In this document: one piece after another, positions 3,363 to 59,400 of the stretch
How positions within the stretch are numbered: the stretch's first letter is position 1
Layout: the number at the start of each line of letters is the position of its first letter
Assembly (NCBI GenBank): GCA_964642015.1
Contig: CAZXLF010000004.1
Location: 20,738 to 84,737, forward strand
Direction: 5' to 3'
DNA from: an uncultured Planctomycetia bacterium
GTDB lineage: Bacteria > Omnitrophota > Gorgyraeia > 2-02-FULL-51-18
Length of the DNA stretch: 64,000 nt
Position numbers and translations under genes: made by a program
The notes under the pieces: model-generated
Told to the model about the DNA's origin: nothing
Database searches by the model: none
What the model saw: the letters and a program-made list of their open reading frames with translations, nothing else

Positions 3363-3438
3363 AAGAACTTAAGAGTGTAGCTGTATTCTTTCCAAGCGTC
3401 AAACAATCTTTTCTGCTTTCAGCTTTGCAAGATGCTGA

Positions 3439-38400: not shown

Positions 38401-41400
38401 AAGCGCTTCACCTTTATCATCCAATTTGACTTTGTGAAAATATGGCTGCGCGGCTTTACCATCGACAAGATTTTTGTAAAACCAAATCATTGTGCCCGGA
38501 ACTAAAAAGTAGATCGGGTCATAACGCTTGGTTCTGGTGTTCCATTTCCATTTTCCTACCGCTTGTTTCACATCGGTCTCATCGGGACTTAAAAATCCGT
38601 AAGCATAGATCTCCTTTTTGATACCTTCTTCTCTTTGACGGATATAGATAAAAGCCGTGTCGGCGCCTTTGGTGACTTCTTCGGATCGCAATTCCATAGG
38701 GCGATGAAAATTAACTGTCCTGTCTCCGATCCGGAACGCATAAAAGTTCGCCGTTTGGTTTTGTTGCCGCTCGACCTTCACCGCTCCGTCAAGAACAGGT
38801 ACGTCCTGTATTTTGAGGGTAGCCAATTTCAAGTGAACATGGCTGTTGCCTATAATAAAGCCCTTATCTTTTGAATAATAAAATGCTTTATATGCCATTG
38901 ATTGAGTGCTTGAATCAAAAATATGAACCCATAAGAAGCCTTTCGCATCTTGGCTGAATCGAAGAATAACCGGTCCTTGACCGGGTAGGCCGGGCTTAGG
39001 AACAATGATTCTGCGTTTGTCAGCTTTATTAGTTTCAAGCCGGAACAAAATCACAGTGCCTCGGACGTTTAACGCTTTTGAATATCCCGGCTGATCGAGG
39101 CCAAAATTTTTAACCAAATACGCGGCCGCTTCCTGATCCTTGTCGACAAAAGCTTTTTTCATTTTTTCTGTCAAAACGCGCCATTGAGAATCAGATATGC
39201 CTTCAGCTTCTTCACTTAATCTTGCGCCCGAAGTAGATTCGCTCAACATGACGACCAATTCATTTTGCAGATCACTTAATCTTTTATAGTGGGAAGCGAT
39301 ATAAGCCAGATCCCTTTTCTCGTTCTGGGCGATCTGCGATGCCTCATCGAGAAGTCTTTCGGCCTCGATCGAAATACTTAAAGCTTGATCTAATTTTCCG
39401 CGGTTAACCAATTCTTCCGCTTTTTCTATTGCTAGATCAAATTCCGACAGGAATCTATCGTGAGAACTTATGCCCTCAACATTTAAAGTTTCCAGCGGAA
39501 CAGTCTGGTTTAATGATTGTTTGATCCTTTCGAGCCGTATCCTGAACTCGGCGGATTCAGAAACCGGCTTGGAAGCAGCGGGCAATTGATTTTGAAGGCG
39601 AAGTGCCGCGTCTTTTCTCAAGTGTCTAACTGTATCAATAGTGACCGCACCGAATCTGCCTAAAATTTTTCGATGTTCAAGCTCATAAGCGATCGTCGCA
39701 TCATCGGCCTGTTTGGACCCGCCAATACCGTAAGTCATGAACATCACTTCCGCTTCAAGGAATGATAGTTTGCCAAAGCGTTCGATCACTCTGTCTTTTC
39801 TCACACCGATCTCCTTGGATAACCAATCAATGCCGCTGGGATAGAGATGGATCTTCTGACGTGCTTGCGCAACCAGACGTTTGAGATTGCCCGGCGAGAC
39901 AGGTCCTTTAGACCTGGCGTCTTTATAACCCAGGTCCCAAAGTTGACGGGCGATCTGAACCAGTGAAAGCTTTTCATCACCAAGAACATAAAAAAGCTCT
40001 ACGGCTTTTCTTTCCCGCAAGGTCAAGATATTCATACGGGTTTCCGTCAACTGCTCTCTTTTTAATTTGATATCATGGGCCAATACGTACCAGCCATCCC
40101 TTAAGGGAGGCCTGTTCTTTGTCAAACGCAGAGGCAATCTCAAATAATCGGCGCCAACACCTCCTGCGAGAAGATAATTGCGGAGCGTTTGGAGTGAGAT
40201 CCTATGAAGATGGGACAAAGAATTATCGTTGAATTCTTTGTCGCGATATTCTCTTACTTTCTTTTTTACTTCCTGGCCGATAGAACTAGCCAATAATCTG
40301 AAAACGACCCGGTGAGTGCCGATCCCATAGTAATTCTTAAGCAAGATCTGTACTCTTTCGGGCAATTGAGACAGCACCTGATCCGTGATCTTTTCAGATT
40401 CTACGCCGATCTTCGTAGCCAAAACCTCGCGGCCTGTTTTAACATCTTTAAGCTGCTTGACGGTTAAATAGCGTCGAAGTTGAAGTTGGGCTGGCGAAGT
40501 ATAATAACGATTACCCTCACCTTTGATGGCTTCGAACATCTTTTTGTAATCCCTGATAACCGGTCTGCTTATTCCATAATAATAAGAAAGAACCTGCCAT
40601 TGCTCGACAGGTATGGCGTAGATCAATTCTGAAGTGAGCTTCTCAACTGAGATTTTGGCATCAGCGGCCAAACGATTTAGAGCAACGGCATTTTCCTGGA
40701 AAAACCTGTCATCATACTTAGAAAGCCGTGCACCTAAGATGGATTCCATGCCTGATCCATAAGTCCGTGCAAATCCGGCCTTTATTTGATCATCGTTCAG
40801 GCTCGGCACTCTCCCCAAGAAAGCTGCCTGTATCAGATCGTATTCGGACCTTAATACAGATCGATCAGCATCTGCTTTGGCATATTCGAAATCGATGAAC
40901 GAAACTTGATTACTCTGCTCGTCCCAAAATATATTTTCGTTCGTGAGCTCGATCCTTCCCTTCATCTTGTTCTCAAAGCAGAGATCTCTATGTGTGATGC
41001 CTAAAGCATGTAAACGTCCCAAAGCAAACGCAACGGCGCCCATCAAATCCCGGCTTTTTTGTTTCATATCAGAATCTGTCAGTCGGCGGCCTTTGCTTAA
41101 CGTCGTTAAAAGCATGCCTGAAGCCGGTAGAAAATAGATCGGAGGCGCTAAATGATACCGGCCTGCCGACCGCGTTGTCTCATATTCATTAAAACGCTTG
41201 GCAGAATATTCCGGCGAATACAACTTCGTGTAAAAAACGATCTCGCCTTTATCGCGCAACGTCAGCTGGTGACGATAAACTGTTCTGCCGCTGACTGTTT
41301 TCAATTGAGTGAAATCATAATTTACGATATCAACCGGATCTGAAACGCGCGCGACGTGCATCAACGCCTCAGGTTCATCGTTGCCAAAAAATGCTTTGAA

Positions 41401-44400
41401 TTTTTCCTGCGCCAGCCGCGCGCCCGGCGGGTTACGTAAAACTAATTTCCATTTCTGTCCCTCTTCTTTACGAAAACCAAGAGTCTGCGCGATCTTGGAA
41501 GTTTGACCGTCCAAAGAAAGATCTTCCACTATAATATAGGCGACGTTGGGAGATTTCTTTAACGATTCCAGTGCTGCTTCGAATAATTTCCTTCCCAGGC
41601 CTCTTTGCCGATAATTGCGGTCTACCGCGATCTGAGTAATCTCACCCTCTTCGTTCCCCATATCAATGAATGTTCTGGCAAATCCCACGACTTTTCGTTC
41701 TTCATTGCGGACAACAAAAACCTCTCCCTCCACTTCTTCGTTCTCCTGCAAAATACCCTGCATGAAAAGCCACAACCGGCGCCTGTATTCTTTAACATCA
41801 CCGATCAATGGCCGATTCAGGAACGGCATATATTCGTTCTTCCACAGTTCTGCGATCTCATCAACGTCGTCCAATCTCGCCCGTTCAACGCGAGATCGCG
41901 AATCCGCTAGCCGGGCGCCAGACGAGACTGAGATGCCTGTCACAAAGTTTTCCGCCACTAGCCTCAATGGGTCTTGACGATAACTTTCCAAGAGCGGTGC
42001 AGCGGCCGGATTCATCCGTTCCAATAAATGCCATGTGACCTCAACAAAAAGTTTGACCATGGCTCCGTCCAAATAATAATGGCCTTGTGTATCATCTTTT
42101 ATCAGTTTGGCGTTCTTTGTACGAGCCAAACGAATGGATAAATTTGTATCAGACGTGGCAATAAGCGGGTCTTTTCCGCCTATTACAATGAGCGCGTTCT
42201 CCAGGCTTTTCAATCGATTGATATCTCTCCGCGGGATCGCAAGCAAAGGCATTTTTCTGACTATTTGCCAGAATGTTCCATTAAAAATATCTTGGAGCTC
42301 TCTGCGCATGACAATGATATTCATAGGATTCCAAAATGTACCGATAAGCGGAGTGTGCATGATTACTTGGGCAGCGGTTTTGATATTGCTATTCAGTAAA
42401 TGCAGGAAAATCGTATAACCGCCAAAACTAAAACCGGCCATTCCTATGCGTTTTGCATCTATACGCTGATCTTGGGCAAGAAATCTCAGAGAAGCATCGA
42501 CCGTCTCAGTGAGGTCCTGCGACGAATTCATTGGCGCCCCATTTTCGCCATGATGAGGCAGGTCGATACGCAACACGGCAAAACCCGTCCAAACCAAAAG
42601 TTTTTCCAATAAATTGAGATAAGGCTGCTCTTTGCTGTGCGTTAAGCCATGCAATAGAATGACCGCAGGCACCGGATGATCTTTCGATGCGTTTTCAGGC
42701 AGCACATAAAAACCGGGAATATCAGGTTTTTCGGGAAGCGGGATCCGCTGGTCAGGCAGGATCACGGGATTCATTCCGCTGCGGCGGTAATCCTCTTGCC
42801 GGCCGCTGACAAATAGCTCTCTCAATTCTCTCATTAAGCGCCGGCTGCGATTGGGCGAAAGAAGGTAGGTTGAAGCGATATACGCCATATTGGCTTTGAC
42901 CAAAGGATTTTGTTCGACCATCGCATGATAAGCCCATTCGCGTTTCCAAGCGTCATACCAGCCAAATCCGCTGCGGTTCAGGATCTCGATCAAAACCCTC
43001 CGTGCAGTAGCTCCATCAATACCATTGGCATGCGCCATTACATATTCATGTTTCGAGAACGCCAATTTCAGGCGCAATATAAAGCTTTCTTTTTCTGTTC
43101 TATAGTTGCCGGGTCTGACAACTTTTCGGGACTTTTCGGTAGTCACAAAGAAACCATCTTCTTCCAAGCTCTTGAACATGCGCTCGGAAAGAAGTGTGCG
43201 ACCCAAACTCGAACGAAATTCCTTGATCGTGCCGGAATCGAACAGTAACTTGACGGCACGCCGCATGAAACCTTCTTTTCCGACCCCGATCTTCATATAA
43301 TCCACTTGCATGGTACGACGGAAAAAACCTTTCAGGTCTGCTTTTGCCCACGCGACAACAACCGGATTCTTCGGATCAGTGATGTCAAAAACCAGCAACA
43401 GATCATGCCTTTTCTTCTCGCGCCTGAAATCGATCCCTTTTAAGATCACAACTTGAATATTGCTACCCAAATCCCTAAGGTCCCGAGCAACACGGTAATG
43501 TTTTGAAGAGGTAAGGCTTTTTATCTTGGCAAAATAAGGCCTGACATCCATCCTTTCTTTTCTTGGTGTTTTGTAGATGTTGGCCAGCCGCGCGCCTTCT
43601 GTTATAAGTCCGCCTTTGACACCGATAATGCTGTCTTGGATATACCGGAACGATCCCCGCAAGGATCGGTCTTCTATAAGATGCACTGTATTCAAAGAAT
43701 AAACTGCGCCGGCCGCTTTGATCAGTTCTTTTTGCACAGCTTCGGTCATTTCGCGATTCTCTTGCCCTTTATAACCGGCAAGTCTGGCTCCGCCTACGAG
43801 AGAATTTATACTGCCGTCTAGGTAACCTCCTTCAAAAACTTCCTCTACTTGAGACCGGGCCAGTTCAGGTGCAGCTTCTTTTACCACTAGCAGCAGATCA
43901 CGATATTCATCTTCCCTTCTAAGATTCGTCAATCTTTTTGCGCCGCCAAAATCAATGAACTTAATATTTCTTCCGTCCCAATAAAAATGATCCCTCCGGA
44001 GAAAAAGCCTAGGTACAAATGCAAAAGCGCCCTTGTTCAATGCATCGCTATAATCAGCACCGATCAAATCGTTATGCACAAATCCGGCTTCATAATGCAA
44101 GCGGCCTAGCGCAAAACCGATCGCTCTCACGATCGGGAGCGTGATCTGAACCAAAGGAGCTGATGGGGGCAAAGTCTGCGTTTCATCCGGACCCAATAAA
44201 ACTCCGTCGGATTCCTCTTGGGACAGAAAAACAATTTTGTTTTCGGTATCGATCAACAGGCTTTTTGGAGCAAGCCCATATTGATGGATCACGTTTGTAA
44301 TCTCGGCTTCGCGTTTCAAAGAGAATTCAGACCAGGTCTTTGCCAGCCATCCTATGACAGGTATGTCGTATAAAAGACCGTAATATTCTTTCGAATAAAA

Positions 44401-47400
44401 TTTGAATGTTCTTATTGCTCCGCTCTGATCGCGGACCGCCAATTGGTGCTCATTGACCGATCTAACAGCAAGCCATGCTCTTCTTTTGGATTGAGCTGCG
44501 ATGCCGTAATCAACAACGGATAACATCTGATCCGAATCTGTTAAAAATCGAAGCACATCCGATGAACGCTCACCAAATATCCTATAGAATCTGATATCAG
44601 ATACTTGTTCGTTATACATAGCAAGCCGTGCGCCACTGTCTTTTTCAAAATCAAAAACTTGCTGAACTGATTTTTGTTCAGGCATTTGAGTTGAGCGATT
44701 AAGATCAGCGATAATCTGAATAATATCGATCAGTTCTTGCCGAAGATCTCTCAAAGCACGTCTCTGATTCCAGCGAATATTCCAACGAAGCACCGTCTCC
44801 ACCGCACGGCCTAAATTTTGCAGATCACTAATGCGGATTTGTTGACCTGATCTGATTCTTTGACGGAGTGCTCCGGCGGCATTTCTCAGTTTGTAGGAAT
44901 TCAAAGTGAAATTAGATGCTCTTCTGACTACTGCTCTGATCCGTGATTCAATTTCCGTTTGACCCGCTAGGCGAGCGCCCTGCTGTTCTTTGCGGGCTCG
45001 AATCCGTTCATTCACAGTTTTCATAAAAACAGGCAGTTTGGATTTTGCGATGACTCCAATTTCGCGTTTTATCGCTTCTCCGATACCAAGCTGCTCTGCA
45101 TCGGCTGTAAGTGATCGCGCGCGGTCCATGAATTCAGCTCTATCGTCAATCCGGCGCAGGGCATTAACATTTTGCCGTAAGATCTTGGCGGGGTCAGGAA
45201 CTGCAACCGGCTCCAGTTTCTTTGGACGTTTTTCTGTCAAAGCGGCAGATGGCTGGGGCGACACTTCCTTAGCGGTGTGGGGCTTCGCTCTTTCCTCGGC
45301 AACAAACTGCGCAAGATCAAATTGATGTTTGCTCTTCCAACTGAAATAACGAGCCCGGGACTGTTTAGAGTCAGCAAGCCCAAGGCCTTTTAAGACCATT
45401 TCTTCCGTGACTTGCTGATCGGCTGGTACACTTGTAATGATCGCGCGGATGCGATTGTAACGCTGCGTTTTTTCAATCATTACCATCATGTCCCGCACTT
45501 CGGGACGGTCCTTATGAACTTCAAACCATCTCCACAATTCTGTCTGAGAAACTTTATCCGAGGCCTGAATAGTAATGGTTCGTGCAAGATTTCCCATGTT
45601 GATCTCTTCTGTCGGCTGTGTAGTCAGCAAATAAATGATCGCACTCCGCGCAGCTTCAAGTCTCATCTGATAACCGCTACTATGTTTCTTCTCCAAACTT
45701 TTCCGCATGATATCAATAGGCTGAGTCCACTGAATACCCAACGCTTCAAGAGAAGCCGGCTTCAAACTATAGACCTGGCTCATCGTAAGACCTGATCTTT
45801 CGGACAAAGATTTTGGATCAATAGGAATAGATGCTGCCTTCATTTCGGCAACAATAGGTGTTAATATTCGAAGTTTCTGTTCGTCTTTCAGTCTTTCGGA
45901 AGCGAGCCGTGCGCCAGACTTGTCTTCAGCATTTCCGTTGGACACTTGAGAGGCTTGATCTCTGGCAAAAAGGACCGATTTCAATGCCAAAATATCCGCA
46001 GCCGTTCTCCAGTCCGTGTCGTATTGTTTTCGTACATCGTCGACGTTGTTCACAGCGTTCGTCAAACTATCTTTGAGCTTTTCGATAACGATCTCTCTCG
46101 GCCACCTTTCGTTAAAAAGATTCTGCTGCCATTCATAAAATGATACGGTAACACCTCCGGCATTAGCGATAGAATCAGGAATCACGATGCTACCGGCCTG
46201 AAGTAATTTTTCATAAGCCTCATTTGAAATAGCCCCATTAGCGCCTTCGATCACAATATCCGCGTTCAACTTTTGAACATTTTCTTTGGTAATGGAATTT
46301 TCTTTAGCGTTGGCATACATGATAAATGTCTTAAGGTCTAAGAACTCATCTCTAGAATTTAAAAGGCGCGCGTTGTGTATTGTATATTCCGGCTTTGAAT
46401 TCAAGCTCGCAAATCCATTCGGGGCTGCCTTTAGACGAAGTAACGTTTCGATGTCTTTCTGATTGAAACCAGATTCCAAATAAATAATGCCTGACATTTC
46501 GGCGATCGCCTGAAGCTTGATCCCGTCTTTGATGGCTTCAAGCGCGGCAGGGATGCCCACTCCGCCAAGGCCTTCCATCTTTGCCGTCATTCCTTCCAGA
46601 CGATTCCATCCCAATTCCAGACCAACGATCGTTTTTAATACATGTTCAACGCCAAATCCCGTTGATTCAGGACGAAAATGCGATCCCGCATGATCAACAT
46701 CAATGACCTCGGCGCCTGTGACATCCTTTTTAACCAACAATGTTTTTGATGTAAATGTGGCCAGGCTGATCGCTAATTGACCCAAAACCGAATTTTCCTG
46801 AACAGGGTACCCTGTTTGTCTCAGAGACGTAAAATATTTAGCGACAACAGTCAGATAGGGGGTCTGCGTCATTGCCTGCATTCTTTTGCTACGATAATCG
46901 CTTTCGACCTGGTCCAAAAGTTGCTGTAGATCTCTGGGATACGCTTGAAATTCTGTTCTCTTCCCATCGGGCATCGGCGTTTCTCTGGCTTTTTGGATAT
47001 GCAGTTTAAGGTATTCATCCGTCATGATATCCATATCCGCCGCCGTGCTTCCCATGTCGGGCGCCGGAATATCGGTGCGCGGTCCTACTCTGCCGGCCTC
47101 AAAGAGGGCTTGTATGAATCGCCTGATGAAATCTGCTCTCAACCGACCGCTTGTCTCCCTGTCTAATCCCTGACTATAATCTCTGATCACAAAAGATCCG
47201 TTTTCTTGCTCAACATCGGCAAATAAAATAACTCCTTTAGCTCCTCCATAGGGTAATTTAGCAGCAGCCGACTTGATCGTCATGCCTACTGCAAGCGCTT
47301 GGGTTTCTTCTCTGACCCATTTGCGCAAAAAATACCTCAATTCGTAAATATTCATTCTCGCGCGGAATTGATTGAATAATTCCATGAACCCCTCATCGGA

Positions 47401-50400
47401 TCCTAACATCCATGCGTATATAAAACGGATCCCGCCCTTGCCGGGCCCGCGTGCAATATTATGAACATCGCGAATGAAAAGAGGGTGGACATCAGTCCCT
47501 AAAATGTTGATCTTTATCTCAGGCTGGAAGTGATTGTAGAAACTTCTAATATAAGCATCGTCATCTTTCGAAAAGTTCCCGACATCGATCGCTTTTTCAA
47601 TACGGCTTTGGGCCGGGGTCGCACCTCTGGTAACACTGGACTCTCCGAGAAAAGTATGCAGGAACGGGTTTTGGTACCTGGGATCCAACTTTAAAGCTGC
47701 AAAATTTTCTTCACGGATCCCAAGTTCATTGAGCTTCCCACGGGCCTCATTGATCAGAAGGATTGTTTCTTGTGTATCGCGAACGGATAAAAACCCTCGG
47801 CCCTGTTGATTTGGAACGACGCGCTTTCTATAACCGGGAGGGAAAAGATGAGTAAGATCGTTCTTTTTTAATTGAATATCAGACAATAGGTCCAGAAGGC
47901 CCCGTTCTATGCGGACATGATGCATCTCCTGCTCGACCCCTTGTCTGTCATTAATACTTATATAAAATACGTCGCCGCCATAGAGCGCGCTCAAAAGCGC
48001 GTCGATCAGCACATATTGATCCGAACCTTTTTCAGGAAAATGTCTAACAATCTTGTCGATACGTTGGACCTCAAAATGCGGACTCTTCCTAGCCGCCAGA
48101 CGTGCGCCGTTGCTGGGCGCTTGAAAAATCCTGGGCGGATTAACTGATCTGTCCAATTCATCATAGATCCTAAGCGCTTCAGATCTGACTTGGCGGATGA
48201 CCTTTTTGTTTTCCAAGTGATCTGTACTGATCTCGTGCAGTTCAAGCATTTCTTCCATCCAATCACGGAAATGGTCCCCACGGGCGAGACCATTTACAAA
48301 AAGCGCCTGCTCATCAGCGGAAAGCAGTACCTTTCTGCCTTTTGCCAGCGGAAGCATGCCGTGTCTCAGATCATAAAGCGCTTTGATAAACTCGTTGTAA
48401 CGTGTCTCACGCAAAAGCGTTTTCAAAAAAACCAAGTAGCGGTGTGTAATGATCATGCCTGAATCGACGCCGCGCAGCTCGGACAATAATTTATTGATAT
48501 CCCGATTGATCCTGATCGCCAGCATAAAATCGCCGAAAGCAAGCGCGCGGTTCACCAAAGCGCTGGCTTGCTTGTCAAGATCAACGATCCTGACGCGGTC
48601 TGTACGGAGCGTTTCGTCGCTGGCGATATCTTTTTCCAGCTTTTTGAAATCCCGACGGAGTTCCGATCTTAATTTAAATAATTTCCATTCCTCGGATATG
48701 AGAAGAGGGATCTGTTTCTTCCAGAAGAGCCATCGGAAATACGGCACCTTCAATTCATCAGGTTTTTTGGCTTCCCAATTCCGGTCAAAATCATCCAAAC
48801 GCTTCTGGATCTCATTTGGTTGAAGACCTTGACGCATCAGCAAATCATGGTAGTTGTGCCACTCTAGAGAATAACGCAGTACAGACCCGGCAATCTTCGC
48901 TTCCACCTCATTTTCCATGTTGAGTTTTGCAAAGTAAGGTACGGGTATATAAGTCAAACGACGAAGCTGGCTGTTCCTGACAATGCCGGCCTGATAAGCC
49001 GTCGAAAGTGTCGGACCCAAAAGATCGGTCTGTGTGAAAACACCCATGATCATCAATGTCTTGCGCGCGTCCGGCGGAAAATATCTTTCGATCAGATAAT
49101 CCACATTGCGTTTGGCTCTGAGGTATAAAGCTTCTTCTTCGGCTGTTAAACGGGTGAGGGGCTCATTTTCATTGAAACGAATGCTGTATTGATTCAGATC
49201 ATCAACGATCAGGGCTTTATCAAGACGCCGTATGATACTTTCGATCTGACGGTAAGTCTGGAGATTCCATTCAAAATAAAGATTCGGATAAAGATAACTG
49301 ATAAAATCAAAACCTGCCTCAAAACGCGCCGTGAGAGATCTTGTCGATTCATTTGCAGGCTTAATGGCCGGCAGCGAAATGATCTCGTATTCTTTCCAGT
49401 CATCATTTTCAGTCAATTGGCGAATGCCTACCGCATAACGGCGCCGTGCTAACCCAAAACTTCCAAAAAATAAAACAGCGTTGATCACGTTGTTATTGTA
49501 TGGGGACATTCCGTTGGTCTTGAACCGGATCTTCTCGTACGGAGTTGAGGTCAATCCAAACATGAGCAATCTGCTATACATTCTAAGTTTGGAAAAATAT
49601 TGGACCATCCATGACTCTTGAGACCGGCCATTAGGATTTGGTTGATTAGGCGCCGATCCGGAAGCCAACCGTGCACCAGCCGAGGAACTGATTTCTCCTT
49701 CAAATATTTTAGCGAATTCTCGTCCTTCAAGTGTCAATACATAAAGATTAGAAGACCTGTCGGCTTTTTTTCGGTCTCTTGCCTGCTCAATCCGCACAAA
49801 AAGTTCCGCGCGGGCCCGTTTCAGCAAACTTTCTATTCCACGCTCGCCAACCCCCGCCAAAAAGGGAGCGGTATTTAAATCCTGTAAAGTGAATACGCCC
49901 TCTCCATGCTGTTGTCTCATCCACACCAGCAGCCGTTTAAAATTTTCGCTAAAAGTCGGTGGTACATTGACAGCGCGAGGAAATGAAGCTGCGATTCGCT
50001 TGCCTTCCTCTGTCAGCACATATCGATCTTCGCCTGTTAAGGGATCCGATTGAACCGCGGCGGTCAGATTTTGTTTTCCGGTCCTCTCGAACCATCTGAA
50101 GCTCGGACTGATCCCTTGTTCATACAAAGCTCGTCGTGTGAATGGTAAATCCGAAAAACGGTTTGCGACCGCATGAAGCCAGTGATCAAATCTTCCTACA
50201 TATTGCTTCTCGACGGATACCCTTTGTTTTCTAACACCCAAATCTTCATAGTCAAAATTCGAGTTCGCCAGAAGATCATAAAGCGCGGTTACTGTAAATG
50301 TTCCTTGCGAAGCATCGGCTACTTCCTGCAACGTCGGTTTATATTCCGCTTCGCCGTGCGCGGTAGCGATATTCTCTGAGATCGCTTTGACTTGTTTAGC

Positions 50401-53400
50401 CATCGCATCATATCTTCTGGGATCTCGAATACCTAAAACAGCATAAGTAACAGAATGGGCCCGCCCATACGGCCCATTAACAAGCGTATAAATATTTTTT
50501 ACCGTGATGCGTCCACTAGATGCTTCGGCAACTTCGCGCACCGAAGGCAAATAACCGGGATCATTTTTTTCTGAAACAAGCTGCGCAGTGATCCTTTGAA
50601 TATCGACGACCCATTGCTCGGGAGCTTTCGCCATTCTAATTCCCAAATCTTCTTCAGGATCGATATGAACGCCTTTTGCGCGGTAACGGTACAGCAAAGT
50701 ACTGAGACTGCCCGTCGTGATTTCTCCTTCTGATGCTTCTTCGATTTCGACCGGCGTCGGGCGGTAATTGGGGTCACCTTTTTCCACGGCTATTTTCCTG
50801 GCTATTTCCCTGACACGCTCAACGATCTCGGCTGCCTGGACTCCTCGCATGCCGACAGAACTATAGGTGATCCCTGCTGGTTTAAGGCGATTGAAGAGCC
50901 TCCAGATGAATTTTGTATTCACTTTATTATCGGATGCTTGCACGATCTCATCGATAGTAGGCCGATAATCAGGTTTGGATCTCTCATGTCGGATCTGATC
51001 AACCAGCGTTTTCAAATAGTCGATCCATTCAACATCATCATGCATAATCCCAGAGGGCCCCGTATTTGGAGCGTAACCGTAAGGAATTTTGTTATCCGAC
51101 ATCGCCAGGATTATCCGCCGTTCCGTAAGAGGATGAGCATAACGCTTGGAAACCTCTACAACACGGCCGGGCGTAGCGTTTACACCTTGCGGCACTTGAG
51201 ATGCAAGCGCATTGAACAATCTGATCCACTCTTCACGGCTTTTATTCGCTTGAGCCAATACCGCATCGACGGCTTGATCATCGCTGTTGAATTTATACTC
51301 CAATTTCTGCGCTTCTTTTCTGAATTCACCGCGCGCCGCATCAAAACCCTCTCTGTCAACCTTCGCAATAGCTTTCGAACCCAGGTCAATATACTTTCTC
51401 AAAGAAGCATTTTCTTGCGTAGCACCCCCGACATTATGCTCCGAAGCCCAATGAAGAATATCGGCGAGCCTTAATTCGTCCTCGATCATGGTGTCATACA
51501 TGATCTTTCGGGATTCATATTCGGACACGATGAACTGAAAATTCCTCAATTGGGCAAGATCAAACAAGAGATCAATGACTTCCGTTTCTTGCGCATTGAA
51601 TGATGCATCAGGGCCCGTCTGACGTTCATGCCGCACTGAAAGGAATTCGGCCAATTCATCAGGAACAAAGCGCTCCAAAAAGGTATTTCCTTCCAAATGA
51701 TCCATGCCCTGGAAAACGCCGGGAAAACTTCTCCTTGCCGTGCGTGCCTTGACTTGCTCTTCTACGGCGCTAAGCCTGTTGCGATAGGTGCTCAAGATGA
51801 CCAAGCCCGCGACGCTCTTATTTTCATTGAAAACCTGAACCTCCTTTTGGGCAGCAAGAGATTCATCCAATTTGATATCGTACCCGCGGGTTCCTACTTG
51901 CGCGACTATGGTGATCGTGAACGGTTCGCCGGTCCTGTGTAAGTTTTGCTGATCAGCTTTATTATTGAGACCTGTCACAGTTCTGACGGACGCTTTAGTT
52001 TTTAAAAACGGTTTCTGTTCGTCCAGCTGCAGCAATAAACCCACGATTTCTTTGGCTTCTTTCGGTGTTTGGCAATTCACGATGATCGGTTGCCCTGTTC
52101 CATAGATCGCCGAAACAGCCGATACAAGATCGTTGATCTTTTTATCCCGCGTAAGATAATACCGATTCGGCCAATTTTGGCGGTTATCCTCGTGTATACG
52201 CTTGAAGTCTATGAGCTTAAGTCCGTAATATTGGATCAGGAAACCTCTCGTGAGATCATCAGCAACTCCCGTCACTCCGCTTACGAAACCAAAACGGTTA
52301 TAGGCATAAGCCATTGTGATCAAAGATAGTGGCCGGCTTTCTAAGCGGACGCGGACCGCTTCATTTCTCTTTAAGCTTTCTTTGGCCTCGATAAAACTCT
52401 GAATGCCCAGCTGAAGACGCACTTCATTCTCCAGTTCTCCGGTAATTCGATTACGCAGTATGACTAAACCGTCCTTGACGACATAATTCACGTCATCGTT
52501 GTAAATTGCATAAGCAACCATGGCCGCTTGAAGCAGTTCCGCCACATTGGCATGACTCAGAAAATCATTCGCTTTTCCATTTCCCATGTGAGACTTGAGC
52601 GCAGGTTCGGAAGTCCGAAGCAGATTTTCGAAAGCGGCCATAAGTTCGGTATTCTTACGAGGAGTCAACACAACGCTTTCGCCTTTGATAACGTAATCTT
52701 TCGGCGTAATATTTGCTTCGAGAAGTTGATAAGCTGTTTTATAGAATTTTTCAATTTCAGGATGTGCCGGCCCCCAATATTCGGATGAGATCTGCGGTTG
52801 ATTTAGAACGCCGAAAAGAGGTGTATCCGCCTCTTCTATGAATATCGCCGGCTGAGAAGGATGGATCTTGTTTTTCCGGGCCTCGAACCAATCCTCTCTC
52901 CAATAGTGAGTAAGCTCCGAAAAAGGCCCGCATACGATATCTCCGTCATGGAATGCCTTTGAAATCGATTCAAATCTATCGGTAGTTGCATCGCCGTTTT
53001 TTACACTTTCTAAATGCGGATAATGAAGTGTCCCATTCTTCTTGGCCACAGTCCCTTCAAAAGGACGCTTATTCAGGATCGCGAAAACCCGCAAACCAAG
53101 CGGAACCATAATCACGGACATTAGCTGAGAATCTCTGGCGGTAAGACCGTTGTCCCAATCATGTACTTCTACTTTCGTGTCGTTCAAAGCTTTAAGATAA
53201 GAAGCGAGCGCTACGGTAAGAGTTTTACCTTCGGATGTCGGCATGATCACCAATTGATGGTTCTTCAGCAAAAGGATCGCGGCCGCTATCTGATTCTCAG
53301 TCGGCGAACCCCCAATATGGGCGGCGATCAATGAATTAACGTTCGGATCATGCGAAAAAGATTCTTTTTTGGAATCAAATTTTACTTCGTTCATATCAGG

Positions 53401-56400
53401 GCCTCGCAGATCTAATGATTCGCCCCCATTCTGAACAGTCACAGAATAATTCTTAGGAAGATCCGAGTAGACTATTTTTCCTTCTTTAAGGATCACGGTG
53501 GCGCTGATCTTTTCCGGCAACTTCAGCAAAAATCGGGTGTGAGGAGAAGTGATCCTGGACGTCCGTTCACTGAATAAAGCAATGGCCTCGGCCAACCCGT
53601 CCTCATCCGGTTCTTTGCCTCTCCAAATTGCCCTCAAAGCGACTCCTTTATCCAGCAACGCTTTGTCTGTTTGCCCATGTAGGGCTTTCTCATAGGTCTT
53701 CGCTTTTTGAATGATACGCTGTACATCTTCTTTCTCCGCCGGAGCTAAAAAAACTTTTTCGGGAGCAGCATGGCCAGTCTTCATTTCTCTTGCTATGTCC
53801 GCTTTCAATTTTTTAGATAAAACTGAAATGCCGTCTTGTGTCAAATGCTCTTCGGATATCTTTCTTGGTGCATTTTTTGCTAGTCTTGCACCCTCATTTT
53901 TAGCGACCAGCCGGTCGAGTTGATTTTGAATAGACTGGATATCATTAAGGAGGCGCTGTTTCAATTTTTCCTTGGACGTCGGCGAGTTAAATAACCGCCC
54001 GGCTTTGACCATTAACTCCAGCCGGGAAACAAGAAGAGGGTTTCCGGAAGAATAAACTTTCGTGTTCGTTTCATTAGGCAGATCAACATTGAATAAGCCT
54101 AATTTAACGGTGCTTTCGGTCACTTCGTTCGTCTGATCATCGAAACGATAAAGATAATAAACATCAGAGTCTGGTCTGCGTTTGACAACAACAGCAATCC
54201 CTTGAGGAAGCCTGCCGAACGCCACAAACTCGGCCTGATTCATATCTTCCACATCTTTTTTCAGAAATGCATAATTTTCTCCGATATTGATCGAGCCCTT
54301 TTGCTCTATTTCCGACCGTTTATTGACATGAGAGATCAGGAATTGAGCCGCTTTCTTTTGATGGGCCAATTGCTTTTCAAATGTATCGAATGGATTGAAT
54401 GGAGAAGCATTTTCTTCCTCATGAGCTATTGTCGCAGTAGCTCTCCAGATGATAAGCTGTTCGAAACCGCCATGCGAAAGCCACCAATACGCTCCGCCGG
54501 CGGCTAATACAAAAACACTGATCGATATCAAAAAAACGCGCTTAACAGTATTCCTAGCCAACCGAGCGCCGAGATATCTTTCAAATTTTATTACCAAATC
54601 GAGTGTCAAAGATTTCCCCTGCAATTGAAATAAGTGATCCTGGGCTTGATTCAGTTGTTGATCCGCGTGACCGATCCATGCTTTGACTAGAGCAAACGTA
54701 TCCAATCCTTGAATATCGGGAAAGATCTCGATTAACGTTTTAAAAAGATTGGGCAAGAGAATGGTCATTAGCTGGATCGAGTGAATATCATGGGATAAAT
54801 TCATCAGAGATCGGCTGAATACATCGAACGCTACTGTCGCAGGCAGTTCGGTCTTCTTCTCACTCAGTGTTTTCAGAACGGACTGAATGTCGTTGTTGAT
54901 GCGATCGATGCTTTCAAAATAATGATGAACCAGTCCTCGCGAGCTAAGTTTATAAACTAAATCCATGAAACTAAATGCGCTACCCACATGCAACGTGAGA
55001 TTCCCTTGCAACATGTCACGCATTTCTTTTTCATTTAAGAAAGATCTGGCCTGGCTCAAATATACAGCAGCAGAATCCACAGAAATTCTTATATTGTCGA
55101 TAAGCTTACCGGCTTGGCTTAGTAATTGTTCTTTATTGAATTCTCCGCCCGCTAAACGCGCGCCGGAGGAAAAATCATTGTTCTTAACTATAATGTTGTA
55201 CCCCAGCCATGCGGGCTCTGAGCCGCCGGCCTGCGCGTTGACTGTGTACTCATTAACACCTTTAGGAAGTCGGTATTTAAATCGGATGCTGGGATGATCT
55301 TCATAGGCTTCCACAAACGTAGCGGGATATGACCCCCATTCACCGGGCAATTGATTGCCGGTATTATCAACTCTTGGATGATAAAACGTAAAAGCGACTT
55401 TATGCGCATCCATCTTTCTATCAAGATTGACGGTCCAATAAACTTCTCCGTTCTGATCGGGAGTTTGCGCACCATTTTCCAGTTCGGGCCAAGGGTTTCC
55501 AAAACTTCTGATCTCAGCGACGTCCACGACCCCGCGCAAGTTGGTCAAAGCCCTCGCCAAACGCGACAGCGGTCCATGCAACCTGAGCAATAGATTCCGA
55601 TCGTCCATGGAAAGAGAAGCGTCTTTGTTGATTTGCTCTACCACCTGGTCAATCATGGTCCTAGAGTCATGAATAAGATAGGCGTATTTGTCCCTGAAGT
55701 ATTTGTCCGTGAATTTGGCATCCTGCGGTTGGGCCTCAATATCTTTGGCCAAGTCATCCAATTGGTCCCAGGTCTTCAAAATGGGCATTGTGATATAAGG
55801 GACGTCGAAAATTTCGGCGGTCGCATTTTTTCTGGTTTTTAATATGGATTCTATTTCTTCATAAGCGCCCTTCAATATTTCTCTGGCATAAGAAGCCTTC
55901 TGCTGCAGCGATCTCGGCTGCTTGAAAAAACGCCGGATATCCAGGCCTTTTCCAGGAAAGGTCACTTGGATAAAAATAAACCGCTCGGTATCCTTTTTGT
56001 AAAAGACAAGCCACGATCGGCGGGTCATATTCAGCGGCGCTTCTTTGGATAAAGAGAATCTCGAAGCGACTGATTCCGGGATCTCGAATATCAAACCAGG
56101 CCTGTTGCGATAGTTTGTCGCGTCATGGTGAACCAACGCATCAGACAACGGCCTCCAAACAGAACTTTCCGCTGAAAGAACACGGTGATTTTGGAGAATG
56201 CTGTTCAAATTTTTTGATTCGCGATCAAGAGAGATCCCCATGTATAGATTTTCGGACCGATTGGAGGGATCTAGATATTCTGAATGTTCATATTCTTCGT
56301 AATGACGGATCAGATTGTTCACTGATTCCTGTGAATCGATCACGGGAGGAGGAGCAAGCTCCTCGTCACTTTCTGCTGCTGCCAAACGCGCACCGGACAA

Positions 56401-59400
56401 AACCGGCAGGATTTGATGAGAACGGCGAATAATGATTTGTTTTAAAAATTCTTCATCGCCGGGCTTGATCCGGTCTTCCAATCGTCGCTCTACAGTTTTT
56501 AATTCAGCCTCGTTCTCGAAATAAAATGGCTCATAGCCATTCCGAATCAGAAGGAAATTCGCCAACAACCAAGCCAAACGATGATGTCCGCTCGCCGCGT
56601 TGCTGAGCGTGTCATTTCCGCTGGATTCTATGATCTGATTAAATCCGGGCCTTCTGAAAAAAATCTGATACGCGGCGATATAAGCATATAGTTCTGCCGC
56701 CATATTTGGCGCACGATCAGGCTCTTTAGAAGTTTCGTTGACCAGATAAACGAGTGAATTATAGGGCCAAGCCATCCTGAGCTGTCTTTGATTGCTCTGA
56801 AGATAATCAGGGTTGGTGTCATCACCGCGAAGCTTTTCATACAATGTCACTATCTCCGGCCAGGTTATGTCTTGGATCTTTTGATCCGCATTGGTTCTAA
56901 CTAAAAGAGAGTTTAAATAGTTCACGGCTTCCAGAAAATGCGGATTGCGGTTGTAAATTTTCTCGGCATCGACCGTAACCTGCCCGTTTGCCAAACGAGT
57001 GCCTTGTGCAATGATCCGGTTTGATGCGAATTCAAAACCTTTTTGAGTCAAAGCATATGTGCGGATCGGTACCGTTTTCATATGCTGATCCACTGAAGGA
57101 ACAGCCCTGATCGCTTTATGCGTGACATCCACGAGATCGATCCATTCGTTTTTCAGTGCTTGCGATAATGCCTCCTCAAAACTCAAAGTAATCAAAATAA
57201 GGTTAGGCTGGAACAGCGTCCCTACGACAGCACTTTGCCGCACTAAACTGATCACAAGTTTTTCGGCGGTCCACTGTGTTTCTGTCAACCTAGCGCCTGA
57301 CTGACCAGCCGATGCACCGTTTTCGGATTGGCTCCTGTCCTGTGTCGTTTCCGCAAGTGTCAGAAGGTCACGAAGCTGCTGTTCACTGAAAGGCGTGATC
57401 TGTATGTCCCTATTTTCCAAGAGGCGTTTTATATCTTGGAAAGCCGCGCGATTCAAATCTTCTTGCCTGGGTAAAAGATAGAAATGCACATTGAAATCTT
57501 TTTGCAGCTTGTGCAAACGAGACAGCGCTTCTTCATTTGCGAAAAAATTCCTCAAATCGTTCAAATCTCGGTAAACCAGTTCCACAAAACCGGCTTTTTC
57601 CGGGATTTGAGCTGTGGACCATTCATGTATATACACGCGTGTGCGTAATTCGTGTGTTGGTTCCAATTCTTTGACCGGAGACAATCGGTCAGGAGTGATC
57701 GAATGCAATACAGCCAGATCAAGCGGATTTGCGCGATGGATATCGTCCAATAACTGCAGGATATGTCTGTAATTTAAATTTTCTTTTAGTTGTTCGGCAT
57801 TATAGTAAATATAGTGGCCGTTATTTGAGCCTGTGTTCGGTCCTCGGATAATTAAAAACGGTTTTTCTTGAGAGCCGATCTCGAAGGTCTCGCCCAAATC
57901 GCCAAATTTATAGGTAACGGAATTATCGGATACAGCTATAGCTCTCACCTCTCCTGTTGCCTTCGCTCGTTCAAGATGAGCAACCAAATTTTCGATTGGT
58001 TCCGCCGATTCCGCCAGCCGAGCGCCATTCCTTTGCAAGAATGAATTCAGTTGATCAAGCGCTTTTCTCAGATAACCATCGTCACCGATCAAAACTAGAT
58101 GTTCTTTTTTTAGAGCATGCGCATACTCATCTGTCATCAGACGTTCGACAATGAAGTTAACCTGATAGTGAATACCTTGCGCCATATCGTCATACATAGA
58201 TTCGGTGGCTCTGTGTTCTTCGTAGTCATCGATCAACTCCTGAAGCTGATGGCGCAATGTTTCCAATTCAGCCGCGATGGGCGCCGTCACCTGAACGCCG
58301 GACCGTTTAAACGCCACAAGAGCCGCGGATAATTGATCTTCTGCCGATTCCAAATTCGACAAGGGAGGATTTTCTGCAAACCGCGCTCCGGTCGGTTTTA
58401 AGTTCAACGCGCCAAATTCATTTTTAAGCATCTCCACAACATTTAATCTCACGCCATCTACCAAGGCTGTCGCTTCGGCGGCCGGCAGAACACCCCATTG
58501 ATCACGAGGATGCTCTGTGGAGGCCGATTTTGTACTGTCTGGCTGATTTAACAAAATATCTTCGTACTTCTTTATGTTAGTTTCCTGAAGAACTTGCGGG
58601 ACAATCGAAACATATGAGACGTTCCGTTCTTTAAGCAACGATTTCAGATGCTCGGTATGATAGCCGCCGGCGACTAGGACGGCTTTCTCGATTTTTTCCT
58701 CATCCATTTTTTTAAAAAGATTTTTCAGGAATGCTTCGTCTCTTTGCCTTGTGAGAGCATAAAATTCGGTGGCTTTTTGGAACGCCTCATCGTAGCCGGC
58801 ATCCAGGAAAAGAGCGTCTTCATAATGAGATGCCAGATCCATGATCTTTTTATTCAAGAAACCGCTGATTTGAATGATATTAAAGCTCTGCGGATCTTGG
58901 TCCAGTGCTCCGAAGTCCTGTGTGGTGAGGTTTAGATTAAATAGGCGCTTTAAAATTTCACAGCAGCCGTCAACCTGATGAAGTCTTTTTTCATCCGCGG
59001 TCCTCGCCAATGATTCATAAATCAATGATTCTAGGTTTTCTTTCTCTATGATGACTTTCTCGGGATTTACTTTTTCAGCTTCTTTCAGATAATCGAAATA
59101 TTTAAAGAGTTCGGGATATTCGTGAGCATTCTTGAGCTTCTCTTCCAAAAGCGCATAGAACGCCTTGGCTTCTTTGTGCTGGAACGCATCGATCGCAAAC
59201 GGATTATTGAGACCCTTCAGGTTTTGTTCGGTGAGTTCGACTTGATCTGTCTGAGAAAGTGATGAAAACGCTTTGATCTGTTCTTCGTTGGCTTTGCTAA
59301 AATCGATCGCAGCTTCTTTTTCTTTGATCTTCTTAAGCGCCGCCAAATAAGGGAAAGATTCAACAACATTCAGACCCATCTTCCTTGCTTCGTCGTTCAG

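What the first reader, a model, noticed from the sequence alone, without database searches (positions are those of the whole stretch)
51660..53330. SecA-like DEAD motor domain embedded in the giant protein
The region aligns by eye with SecA NBD1 (GEGKTL…, the DEAD-like IEEADTPL region), the pre-protein cross-linking-like segment and NBD2 (the GLVILSTYRNRL…ARTARRSFPG region matching [30 protein letters not shown]). A SecA motor inside a giant non-Sec protein is unusual. It could power translocation or unfolding of the protein's own segments, or of the released modules.
Basis: partly seen in the sequence, partly recalled or inferred. Interest (0 to 1): 0.75.

Follow-up and report, generated by a model that had tools for sequence, protein, structure and literature searches.

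The report
SecA-like motor in giant polyprotein
The region really encodes a stripped-down copy of the bacterial protein-export motor SecA inside an 11,236-residue protein, a feature already reported for giant Omnitrophota proteins; here the giant is cut into 31 units by a repeated five-residue motif, which gives testable cleavage points.

Summary
Window 51424-53736 (- strand, giant-protein residues 2130-2900) encodes a divergent SecA-family ATPase. It has NBD1, the preprotein cross-linking domain (PPXD), NBD2 and one long helix. All three SecA Pfam models pass their curated cut-offs. The 36 best fold matches are all SecA or SecA2. Walker A Lys, the Walker B acidic pair, the R509-equivalent arginine finger and the R574/R577 equivalents are all kept. 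The wing, two-helix finger and C-terminal tail are absent.

This is not unusual. West-Roberts et al. 2023 reported divergent SecA_DEAD/PP-binding domains without scaffold/wing in most giant Omnitrophota proteins. The closest relatives (33-37% identity) all sit in multi-thousand-residue proteins.

What I did not find in the literature I could search:
- The 11,236-aa ORF carries 30 G-A-R-[L/F]-[A/S/T] separators (0.5 expected), with varied codons.
- Relatives use other separators ([AS]SLG, RSE[LV]R).
- Only two parts are shared with close relatives: the SecA-like unit and an N-terminal Tiki/TraB/ChaN-fold module. Everything else is variable enzyme cargo.

Best reading: an active polypeptide-clamping ATPase that belongs to the conserved core of a processed polyprotein. 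Its function is inferred, not shown.

The parts
26413..60123 (-). Giant ORF, 11,236 aa, TTG start. It holds 31 units separated by 30 G-A-R-[L/F]-[A/S/T] motifs.
49669..53883 (-). Unit 8 (aa 2081-3485), the separator-bounded unit that contains the SecA-like motor.
51424..53736 (-). SecA-like core (aa 2130-2900): N-terminal helices, NBD1, PPXD, NBD2 and one long helix.
52207..53736 (-). NBD1 with the inserted PPXD (aa 2130-2639). It matches a profile of E. coli SecA residues 1-420 with E=5e-48.
52387..52749 (-). Preprotein cross-linking domain (aa 2459-2579), matched by Pfam SecA_PP_bind.
51640..52173 (-). NBD2 (aa 2651-2828).
53218..53244 (-). Walker A, MPTSEGKTL. K2300 corresponds to E. coli K108.
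52816..52845 (-). Walker B region, IFIEEADTPL. E2430/E2431/D2433 correspond to E. coli D209/E210/D212.
53005..53025 (-). Clade-specific insertion in NBD1 with an invariant P-H-L (aa 2369-2371). It is absent from canonical SecA.
51868..51906 (-). Motif V, VAQVGTRGYDIKL. R2746 corresponds to the E. coli R509 arginine finger.
51718..51762 (-). Motif VI, EEQVKARTARRSFPG. R2794 and R2797 correspond to E. coli R574 and R577; R572 is replaced by K.
51439..51594 (-). Long helix after NBD2 (aa 2844-2895). It sits where the first scaffold helix of SecA would be, but a scaffold-helix profile does not detect it.
53878..53892 (-). Separator GARLA (aa 2078-2082), immediately upstream of the SecA-like unit.
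49663..49677 (-). Separator GARLA (aa 3483-3487), immediately downstream of the SecA-like unit.
50224..51156 (-). Tail of unit 8. By eye it contains four repeats of about 75 aa (P.Y.PT..E[IV]..AS.G..T) that look like helix-turn-helix. Pfam gives only sub-threshold hints. The tail is absent from relatives' SecA-like units.
58381..60123 (-). Unit 1 (aa 1-581): a signal-peptide-like N-terminus followed by a Tiki/TraB/ChaN/EreA-fold domain with invariant H92, E120, R461, G486, G487 and H489. It is the only other part shared with close relatives.
54478..54537 (-). The only strong internal hydrophobic segment (aa 1863-1882). It begins 8 residues after the start of unit 7 and is preceded by RNTVKR.

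Best explanation
The region is a genuine but strongly diverged SecA-family ATPase. It keeps the N-terminal two-thirds of SecA (NBD1 with inserted preprotein-binding domain, then NBD2) plus one long helix. It lacks the wing domain, the two-helix finger and the C-terminal tail. It belongs to the class of SecA-like domains already described in giant Omnitrophota proteins.

It occupies one separator-bounded unit of an 11,236-aa multi-enzyme polyprotein. Its catalytic residues are conserved across a clade with only about 33% identity, so it is most likely an active ATP-driven clamp that binds and moves unfolded polypeptide.

Among close relatives, only this unit and the N-terminal Tiki/TraB-fold hydrolase-like unit are shared. 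Every other unit differs. I therefore infer that the motor is part of the conserved core that handles the polyprotein's own chain. It would hold or ratchet unfolded stretches for membrane passage, and/or present the separators for cutting. I do not think it is one of the cargo enzymes, nor a second canonical SecA docked on SecYEG.

Shown here: domain identity, motif conservation, the missing C-domain, the separators, and the pattern of co-conservation.
Inferred: ATPase activity, cleavage at the separators, which protease cuts, and the motor's substrate.
For: Identity:
- Pfam, PDB and fold matches are SecA-specific.
- Custom profiles from 90 canonical SecA sequences (89 plus E. coli) give 5e-48 for NBD1+PPXD and 1.5e-23 for NBD2.

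Activity:
- K108, E210, D212, R509, R574 and R577 equivalents are present in the window and invariant in seven clade members at 32-34% identity to the window's copy.
- R509 is the arginine finger according to bioRxiv 10.1101/2021.08.31.458331.

Clade:
- An exhaustive HMMER search gives 243-313 bits to eight proteins of 1.8-6.6 kaa.
- Full-length canonical SecA proteins score at most 104.5 bits.

Core role:
- BLASTP of the whole giant against the relatives finds only unit 1 and the SecA-like unit in common, apart from one unit-18 match to the more distant P0046.
- All 9 close relatives in which unit 1 could be looked for carry it at their start (P0017 lacks its start codon); the tenth, P0007, is cut at its N-terminus.
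- In many relatives the order is unit 1, then the SecA-like unit at about residues 750-1300, then cargo.

Separators delimit whole proteins:
- 30 observed against 0.5 expected, encoded with varied synonymous codons.
- Unit 28 is a complete AceK of 587 aa, and unit 16 is a complete GNAT of 165 aa.
- SecA homology starts 49 aa after a separator.
- Both hydrophobic targeting-like segments sit at unit starts.
- In P0013 a lipoprotein-type signal follows a separator.

Other points:
- Relatives carry their own separators.
- The literature gives the same general picture for Omnitrophota giants.
Against: - No experiment or proteomic data were available, so neither cleavage nor ATPase activity is demonstrated.
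- Among more distant giants that carry unit 1, SecA-like sequence was found in only 3 of 6 within the 2.9-3.9 kaa of ORF available. Co-occurrence is therefore not universal, or the motor lies further downstream.
- A membrane segment between unit 1 and the motor is present in some relatives but not all. Its flanking charges in the window predict the opposite orientation from a simple 'protease outside, motor inside' model.
- If the N-terminal signal peptide exports the uncleaved chain, the ATPase would end up where there is no ATP.
- In the window's copy the D217 and R566 equivalents are both replaced (G2438, A2786), while relatives keep D and R. From memory, these form the Gate1 regulatory pair. 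Regulation may therefore differ in this copy.
Confidence: 0.55

Rival explanations
1. It is an extra, built-in SecA that docks on the cell's SecYEG channel and pushes the giant protein (or its exported loops) across the cytoplasmic membrane. This is the role proposed by West-Roberts et al.
For: - This role is proposed in the literature.
- The giant starts with a signal-peptide-like segment: basic n-region, an h-region of about 11 residues, then SYA|NP.
- A hydrophobic segment lies upstream of the motor in the window and in about 9 of 12 relatives.
- The PPXD clamp and both NBDs are retained.
Against: - The elements canonical SecA uses to engage SecY and lipid are not detectable: the scaffold/two-helix finger, the wing and the C-tail. 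The E. coli control scores strongly with the same profiles.
- The free N-terminal amphipathic helix cannot exist while the unit is embedded in the chain.
- The motor is synthesised after the 2,100 residues it would have to help export.
- This giant has only one internal membrane segment, so there are few loops to translocate.
- Three relatives have no membrane segment between the signal peptide and the motor.
Confidence: 0.2
2. It is cargo like the other units. After release it acts on something other than the polyprotein, for example the Sec machinery, other proteins or nucleic acids of a prey or host cell. The helix-turn-helix-like repeats behind it would guide it.
For: - The unit is flanked by separators like every cargo unit.
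- SecA belongs to the SF2 helicase superfamily; Foldseek also aligns the model to DinG and XPD at about 1e-9.
- The window's unit carries about 580 extra residues with HTH-like repeats.
- The other units are enzymes typical of effector arrays: AceK, GDH, GNAT, kinase-like and alpha/beta hydrolase.
Against: - Cargo units are not conserved between relatives, but this one is.
- The HTH-like tail is specific to the window. In relatives the unit ends 4-90 aa after the long helix.
- The Pfam support for HTH is below threshold.
- The SecA-specific PPXD polypeptide clamp is retained.
Confidence: 0.15
3. It is a catalytically dead relic that serves only as a structural spacer.
For: - It is strongly diverged (about 20-28% identity to SecA).
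- The first Walker B acidic residue is E instead of D.
- R572 is replaced by K.
- The D217 and R566 equivalents are lost in the window's copy.
Against: - The ATP-binding and hydrolysis residues are invariant across clade members that share only about a third of their residues. This indicates purifying selection on catalysis.
Confidence: 0.05

Closest known systems
SecA-like domains of giant Omnitrophota (and some actinobacterial) proteins (West-Roberts et al. 2023, bioRxiv 10.1101/2023.11.21.568195; PF07517 architecture cluster in bioRxiv 10.64898/2026.06.07.730766)
   Same: - SecA_DEAD plus the preprotein-binding domain, without scaffold/wing.
- Embedded in a very long ORF.
- Far from canonical SecA in sequence.
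- Named relatives are annotated as Omnitrophota/Omnitrophica.
   Different: - This ORF (11.2 kaa) is of the 'multi-enzyme' type, with a signal peptide and one membrane segment, not the Archaeovorin/dockerin type with many membrane helices.
- Here the motor sits in the first quarter of the protein, not near the C-terminus.
- Neither preprint mentions the separators or the conserved Tiki/TraB-fold head.
Canonical SecA (for example E. coli, B. subtilis)
   Same: - NBD1-PPXD-NBD2 order, fold and catalytic motifs.
- Best structural matches have TM about 0.6.
   Different: - No HSD/two-helix finger, wing or C-terminal Zn tail.
- Not free-standing.
- Extra insertions: about 78 aa before the Q-like region and an invariant P-H-L loop in NBD1.
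- Walker B reads EEAD.
SecA-N68 (C-terminally truncated E. coli SecA; PDB 5k9t, 3bxz)
   Same: It has the same domain content as the window's core (motor plus PPXD). Both entries are among the fold hits.
   Different: N68 is a laboratory truncation. The window's version is a natural, conserved form with its own insertions and a following long helix.
SecA2 accessory ATPases (Mycobacterium, Clostridioides)
   Same: It is a second, diverged SecA paralogue presumably dedicated to particular substrates. SecA2 structures are among the top hits.
   Different: SecA2 is a separate gene that keeps the scaffold and two-helix finger.
MARTX multifunctional autoprocessing toxins (architectural analogy only)
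   Same: - A conserved delivery/processing part plus a variable string of enzyme domains released by cutting at short inter-domain sites. From memory, the MARTX protease cuts after Leu.
- The MARTX effector RRSP shares the fold of unit 1.
   Different: - No C80 cysteine protease domain or RTX repeats were found.
- The separators here are a strict pentapeptide.
- A SecA-like ATPase is present.

Membership tests
SecA (canonical preprotein translocase ATPase) | NBD1 with Walker A and Walker B (PF07517) | tested here: met
   PF07517 scores 71.8 bits against a cut-off of 24.6. K2300, E2431 and D2433 align to K108, E210 and D212.
SecA (canonical preprotein translocase ATPase) | Preprotein cross-linking domain inserted in NBD1 (PF01043) | tested here: met
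   30.2 bits against a cut-off of 23.5. The domain is also covered by the custom NBD1+PPXD profile.
SecA (canonical preprotein translocase ATPase) | NBD2 with the arginine finger (PF21090) | tested here: met
   35.3 bits against a cut-off of 27. R2746 corresponds to R509, and R2794 and R2797 to R574 and R577.
SecA (canonical preprotein translocase ATPase) | Helical scaffold, wing and two-helix finger (PF07516) | tested here: not met
   There is no Pfam hit at E<=1. Custom HSD1, HWD, IRA1 and C-domain profiles give no hit, while the E. coli control scores 1e-74. The model shows only a single long helix.
SecA (canonical preprotein translocase ATPase) | C-terminal zinc-binding tail (PF02810; not universal in SecA) | tested here: not met
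   There is no Pfam hit, and no CxCxSG motif anywhere in the giant.
SecA (canonical preprotein translocase ATPase) | Works with SecYEG to export preproteins | not testable with these tools
   This needs biochemistry or genetics. The rest of the genome is not in the window.
Giant-protein SecA-like clade (West-Roberts et al. 2023) | SecA_DEAD plus PP-binding without scaffold/wing, inside a very long ORF | tested here: met
   description of the class
Giant-protein SecA-like clade (West-Roberts et al. 2023) | Clusters apart from canonical SecA | tested here: met
   Scores are 243-313 bits to eight proteins of 1.8-6.6 kaa, against at most 104.5 bits to full-length canonical SecA proteins. No tree that includes the published set was built.
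Giant-protein SecA-like clade (West-Roberts et al. 2023) | Omnitrophota origin | tested here: inconclusive
   Relatives with a source name are annotated Candidatus Omnitrophota/Omnitrophica, and one as Planctomycetota. The window's own taxon was not determined.
   The PPXD is present. The 36 best fold hits are SecA/SecA2, and other helicases are about 16 orders of magnitude weaker in E-value.
Tiki/TraB/ChaN/erythromycin-esterase superfamily (unit 1) | Shared alpha/beta core fold | tested here: met
Tiki/TraB/ChaN/erythromycin-esterase superfamily (unit 1) | Conserved His/Glu/Arg/GxxH catalytic set, and hydrolase (protease) activity | tested here: inconclusive
   H92, E120, R461 and G486-G487-x-H489 are invariant in 9 sequences. 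Their equivalence to the catalytic residues of the family rests on my memory of that family and was not superposed. Activity cannot be tested here.
MARTX toxins | C80 cysteine protease domain and RTX-type repeats | tested here: not met
   No such Pfam hits were found in any unit at E<=0.01.

The most novel reading that the evidence does not exclude
The giant is a self-processing, self-translocating effector polyprotein. In this reading it has a conserved head: a signal peptide, a Tiki/TraB-fold endopeptidase and a SecA-derived ATP ratchet. The head would move about 30 freely exchangeable enzyme units across a membrane, possibly into a prey cell, where ATP is available. It would cut the units free at a lineage-specific short separator: GARLA here, [AS]SLG or RSE[LV]R in relatives. 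That would be a new kind of bacterial protein-delivery and polyprotein-processing system. It would also supply the cleavage points that the giant-protein literature says are unknown.
Probability: 0.2. Interest if true: 0.9.

Novelty: new member of a known kind. Interest (0 to 1): 0.5.

Why it matters
The SecA-like domain itself adds one more, well-characterised example to a feature already noted in giant Omnitrophota proteins. It comes with a residue-level account of what is kept (the ATPase and the clamp) and what is lost (everything that couples SecA to SecY).

The context matters more. West-Roberts et al. stated that lack of information on cleavage points prevented splitting giants into functional pieces. 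The strict, protein-level separators found here and in relatives give explicit, testable cut sites.

The finding that only the SecA-like unit and a Tiki/TraB-fold unit are conserved also narrows the search for the machinery that handles these proteins. If cleavage is confirmed, these 'giant proteins' would be bacterial polyproteins with exchangeable cargo.

Tried and rejected
- Word-indexed homologue searches with the SecA-like region and with its clade alignment returned only four ordinary SecA proteins. The exhaustive search was needed to find the relatives.
- Full-text searches for the separator strings and for 'polyprotein' with Omnitrophota found nothing relevant.
- A profile of unit 1 against PDB sequences gave only chance hits. 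Only the fold comparison identified it.
- I looked for a conventional protease in the giant and in the neighbouring genes. Pfam at E<=0.01 on all units, and PDB sequence searches of units 2-7 and 11-26, found none. The neighbours are housekeeping genes: IlvD, transketolase, the Bat/MoxR operon, PanE and an oxoacid:ferredoxin oxidoreductase.
- I tested the idea that a membrane segment always separates unit 1 (outside) from the motor (inside). It fails in three relatives, and the flanking charges in the window point the other way.
- The Logan contig L001 is 100% identical to the window and probably comes from the same data, so it is not independent support.
- I could not verify from held papers my recollection that Tiki cuts Wnt3a between Leu and Ala.
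Full report
**What is there.** The finding lies on the minus strand inside a single uninterrupted ORF, window 26413..60123, 11,236 aa. The stated coordinates correspond to residues 2265-2822. G+C content is about 45% throughout, the same as in the flanks. The neighbouring genes are ordinary chromosomal genes: IlvD, a 3'-5' exonuclease-like gene, an M15 dipeptidase, LemA/TPM, the MoxR-DUF58-BatA/B-BatD operon, transketolase, glycerol kinase, PanE and an oxoacid:ferredoxin oxidoreductase.

**Check of the observation.** Pfam was run on the unit that contains the region (aa 2081-3485). All three hits are above the curated cut-offs:
- SecA_DEAD, 7.7e-20.
- P-loop_SecA (NBD2), 1.2e-8.
- SecA_PP_bind, 7.1e-7.

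A sequence search (phmmer) of PDB sequences finds only SecA and SecA2 (plus one MBP-SecA fusion construct), with a best E-value of 6.8e-24. An AlphaFold2 model built with six relatives has pLDDT 73. Foldseek with this model gives SecA/SecA2 as its 36 best matches (E down to 3.6e-26, TM about 0.6). Other SF2 helicases (DinG, XPD) appear only at about 1e-9.

I built profiles from 89 canonical SecA sequences plus E. coli SecA. They place NBD1+PPXD at unit residues 50-559 (E=5e-48) and NBD2 at 571-748 (E=1.5e-23). SecA homology begins 49 residues after the preceding separator. The core is therefore aa 2130-2900, window 51424-53736, which is somewhat larger than the coordinates given.

**Catalytic residues.** Alignment with E. 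coli SecA (coordinates) shows:
- Walker A is MPTSEGKTL, with K2300 corresponding to K108.
- Walker B is IEEAD. E2430, E2431 and D2433 correspond to D209, E210 and D212.
- Motif III is TGV in place of TGT.
- Motif V is TRGYD. R2746 corresponds to R509, the arginine finger according to bioRxiv 10.1101/2021.08.31.458331.
- Motif VI is QVKARTARR. R2794 and R2797 correspond to R574 and R577, and R572 is replaced by K.

These residues are invariant in an alignment of seven clade members that are 32-34% identical to the window's copy. That argues for a working ATPase.

The D217 and R566 equivalents are G and A in the window but D and R in the relatives. From memory, these two residues form the 'Gate1' salt bridge of SecA. 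I could not confirm the residue numbers from a held paper.

**What is missing.** Profiles for the first scaffold helix, the wing domain, the two-helix-finger region and the whole C-domain give no hit in the window or its close relatives. E. coli SecA scores up to 1e-74 with the same profiles. Pfam finds neither SecA_SW nor the SecA C-terminal tail. No CxCxSG zinc motif exists anywhere in the giant. The model ends in one long helix, aa 2844-2895. The module therefore resembles the laboratory truncation SecA-N68 with clade-specific insertions. These include an insert of about 78 aa before the first conserved Gln and a loop in NBD1 with an invariant P-H-L.

**Relatives.**
- An exhaustive HMMER search of 1.84 billion representatives gives 10 hits below 1e-30.
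- The best eight (243-313 bits, 33-36% identity over about 570-640 residues) lie inside proteins of 1,795-6,608 aa; a ninth, P0013 (188 bits, 37%), matches over about 330 residues.
- Full-length canonical SecA proteins start at 104.5 bits.
- One more distant relative is annotated Candidatus Omnitrophota.
- Homologues of the N-terminal unit are annotated Candidatus Omnitrophica, and one as Planctomycetota.
- The window's own taxon was not determined.

**Known or new.** West-Roberts et al. [quoted passage not shown] They report that these domains form a separate long-branch clade, that similar domains occur in actinobacterial giants, and that they may export the giant protein itself. A 2026 preprint reports a 20-protein PF07517 architecture cluster and a 'multi-enzyme metabolic cluster' class of long Omnitrophota proteins. 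The SecA-like domain in this window is therefore a new member of a known kind.

**Separators.** The giant contains 30 copies of G-A-R-[L/F]-[A/S/T], against about 0.5 expected from its composition. They are encoded with many different synonymous codons, so the constraint acts on the peptide and not on the DNA. They divide the protein into 31 units of 65-1,405 aa. Units with recognisable content:
- Unit 10: glutamate dehydrogenase.
- Unit 15: alpha/beta hydrolase.
- Unit 16: a GNAT acetyltransferase, complete at 165 aa.
- Unit 17: a Kdo/choline-kinase-like fold (weak hits). Units 13 and 24 share its motifs by eye.
- Unit 27: an AceK kinase domain.
- Unit 28: a complete AceK, 587 aa, with both Pfam models covered end to end.

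Only two hydrophobic segments exist, and both sit at the start of a unit. One is the signal-peptide-like N-terminus of unit 1. The other is aa 1863-1882, eight residues after the start of unit 7.

Relatives carry their own recurrent motifs:
- GARL, 12 copies in P0013.
- [AS]SLG, 5-6 copies each in P0005, P0006 and P0008.
- RSE[LV]R, 8 copies in P0046 and 4 in P0100.

Each is 15- to 400-fold above expectation. GARLA also follows the N-terminal unit in five further proteins. In P0013 a lipoprotein-type signal (…LLLAAC) starts four residues after a separator. All of this fits cleavage sites in a polyprotein. Cleavage itself is inferred, not shown. I found no mention of such motifs in either preprint or elsewhere.

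**Conserved head.** BLASTP of the whole giant against the relatives finds only two shared parts, unit 1 and the SecA-like core (one further match, to unit 18, occurs in the more distant P0046). All other units differ. Unit 1 is at the N-terminus of every close relative in which it could be looked for. It is also at the N-terminus of eight open-ended giant ORFs recovered from metagenomes.

**Limits.**
- In six more distant giants that carry unit 1, SecA-like sequence was detected in only three within the available 2.9-3.9 kaa.
- A membrane segment between unit 1 and the motor is not universal. The charge distribution around the window's segment does not fit a simple 'protease outside, motor inside' topology.
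- No conventional protease was found in the giant or nearby.

**Mechanism, with confidence.**
- Very likely: this is an active SecA-derived ATPase with a polypeptide clamp that cannot engage SecYEG in the canonical way.
- More likely than not (about 0.55): it is part of the conserved handling apparatus of the polyprotein. It would hold or ratchet unfolded chain for membrane passage and/or for cutting at the separators.
- Rival, about 0.2: a canonical-style extra SecA working on SecYEG.
- Rival, about 0.15: a released cargo enzyme acting on other targets.
- Rival, about 0.05: an inactive relic.
- The most novel reading not excluded is a self-translocating, self-processing effector polyprotein (about 0.2).

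Noticed in passing
window 26413-60123 (-); separators at giant aa 579, 700, 943, 1244, 1654, 1852, 2078, 3483, 4006, 4737, 5049, 5164, 5445, 5510, 6069, 6234, 6464, 6966, 7555, 7645, 8048, 8573, 8805, 9037, 9131, 9271, 9551, 10138, 10417, 10907: There are 30 copies of G-A-R-[L/F]-[A/S/T], often preceded by Ser, against about 0.5 expected. Their codons vary synonymously. They divide the giant into 31 units. Candidate scissile bonds are GA|R, R|L (which would leave an N-terminal Leu or Phe) and L|A.
   Followed up: partly
window 58381-60123 (-), giant aa 1-581: The N-terminal unit has a signal-peptide-like start and a Tiki/TraB/ChaN/EreA-type fold with invariant H92, E120, R461 and GGxH489. Apart from the SecA-like unit it is the only part conserved in relatives. 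It is a candidate processing hydrolase.
   Followed up: partly
P0005, P0006, P0008, P0009, P0013, P0046, P0100 (relatives): Related giants carry different recurrent short motifs: [AS]SLG, GARL and RSE[LV]R. All contain a Leu or Val at the fourth position. This suggests lineage-specific separators.
   Followed up: partly
window 54478-54537 (-), giant aa 1863-1882; also P0013 aa 618-643: Hydrophobic targeting-like segments sit directly after separators. In the window it is a membrane anchor preceded by RNTVKR. In P0013 it is a lipoprotein-type signal ending LLLAAC. This is what would be expected if the units become separate proteins.
   Followed up: partly
window 29704-32304 (-), giant aa 9274-10140: Two adjacent units are AceK-related. 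One is an AceK kinase domain alone (unit 27). The other is a complete isocitrate dehydrogenase kinase/phosphatase of 587 aa (unit 28).
   Followed up: no
window 45907-48099 (-), 41911-43587 (-), 41416-41910 (-): Other recognisable cargo units are a glutamate dehydrogenase with an N-terminal extension of about 200 aa (unit 10), an alpha/beta hydrolase (unit 15) and a GNAT acetyltransferase (unit 16).
   Followed up: no
giant aa 5167-5447, 6237-6466, 8808-9039 (units 13, 17, 24): Three small paralogous units share ALGRLH..G..H.DL and FIDF[GE] motifs. Only unit 17 gives hits, weak ones to Kdo/choline-kinase/protein kinase models. They look like a repeated small kinase fold.
   Followed up: no
window 50224-51156 (-), giant aa about 2990-3300; also unit 18 (aa 6467-6968): By eye there are four repeats of about 75 aa behind the SecA-like core that look like helix-turn-helix. 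Unit 18 has four sigma-70-region-4-like repeats, and P0046 shares similarity to unit 18. Pfam support is only sub-threshold.
   Followed up: partly
giant aa 2438 and 2786 (window about 52810-52812 and 51766-51768): The equivalents of E. coli SecA D217 and R566 are both replaced (G and A) in the window, while six relatives keep D and R. This looks like a paired loss.
   Followed up: no
giant aa 2194-2271 and 2369-2371: There are clade-specific insertions in NBD1: about 78 aa before the conserved GxPxxxQ, and a loop with an invariant P-H-L. Further invariant His, Trp and Asp residues (EVHDW, W..DW…H) have no counterpart in canonical SecA. Their function is unknown.
   Followed up: no
L094 3-7427 and 8619-20303: Two long ORFs lie next to each other in one metagenome contig. 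The upstream one has RSEVR/RSEMR repeats. The downstream one starts with a unit-1 homologue and carries a SecA-like domain at aa 918-1450.
   Followed up: no
P0014 (4,930 aa; named in its source 'helix-turn-helix domain-containing protein, Candidatus Omnitrophota bacterium'): It carries two SecA-like copies (aa about 1317-1898 and 2975-3557). They are closer to canonical SecA and retain a detectable first scaffold helix. It has no unit-1 homologue.
   Followed up: no
context of P0158: A unit-1 homologue fused to a protein kinase (885 aa, with GARLA at aa 599) is followed by a separate gene of at least 6,417 aa with sugar-metabolism domains. In some genomes the head and the cargo may be split into two genes.
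   Followed up: no
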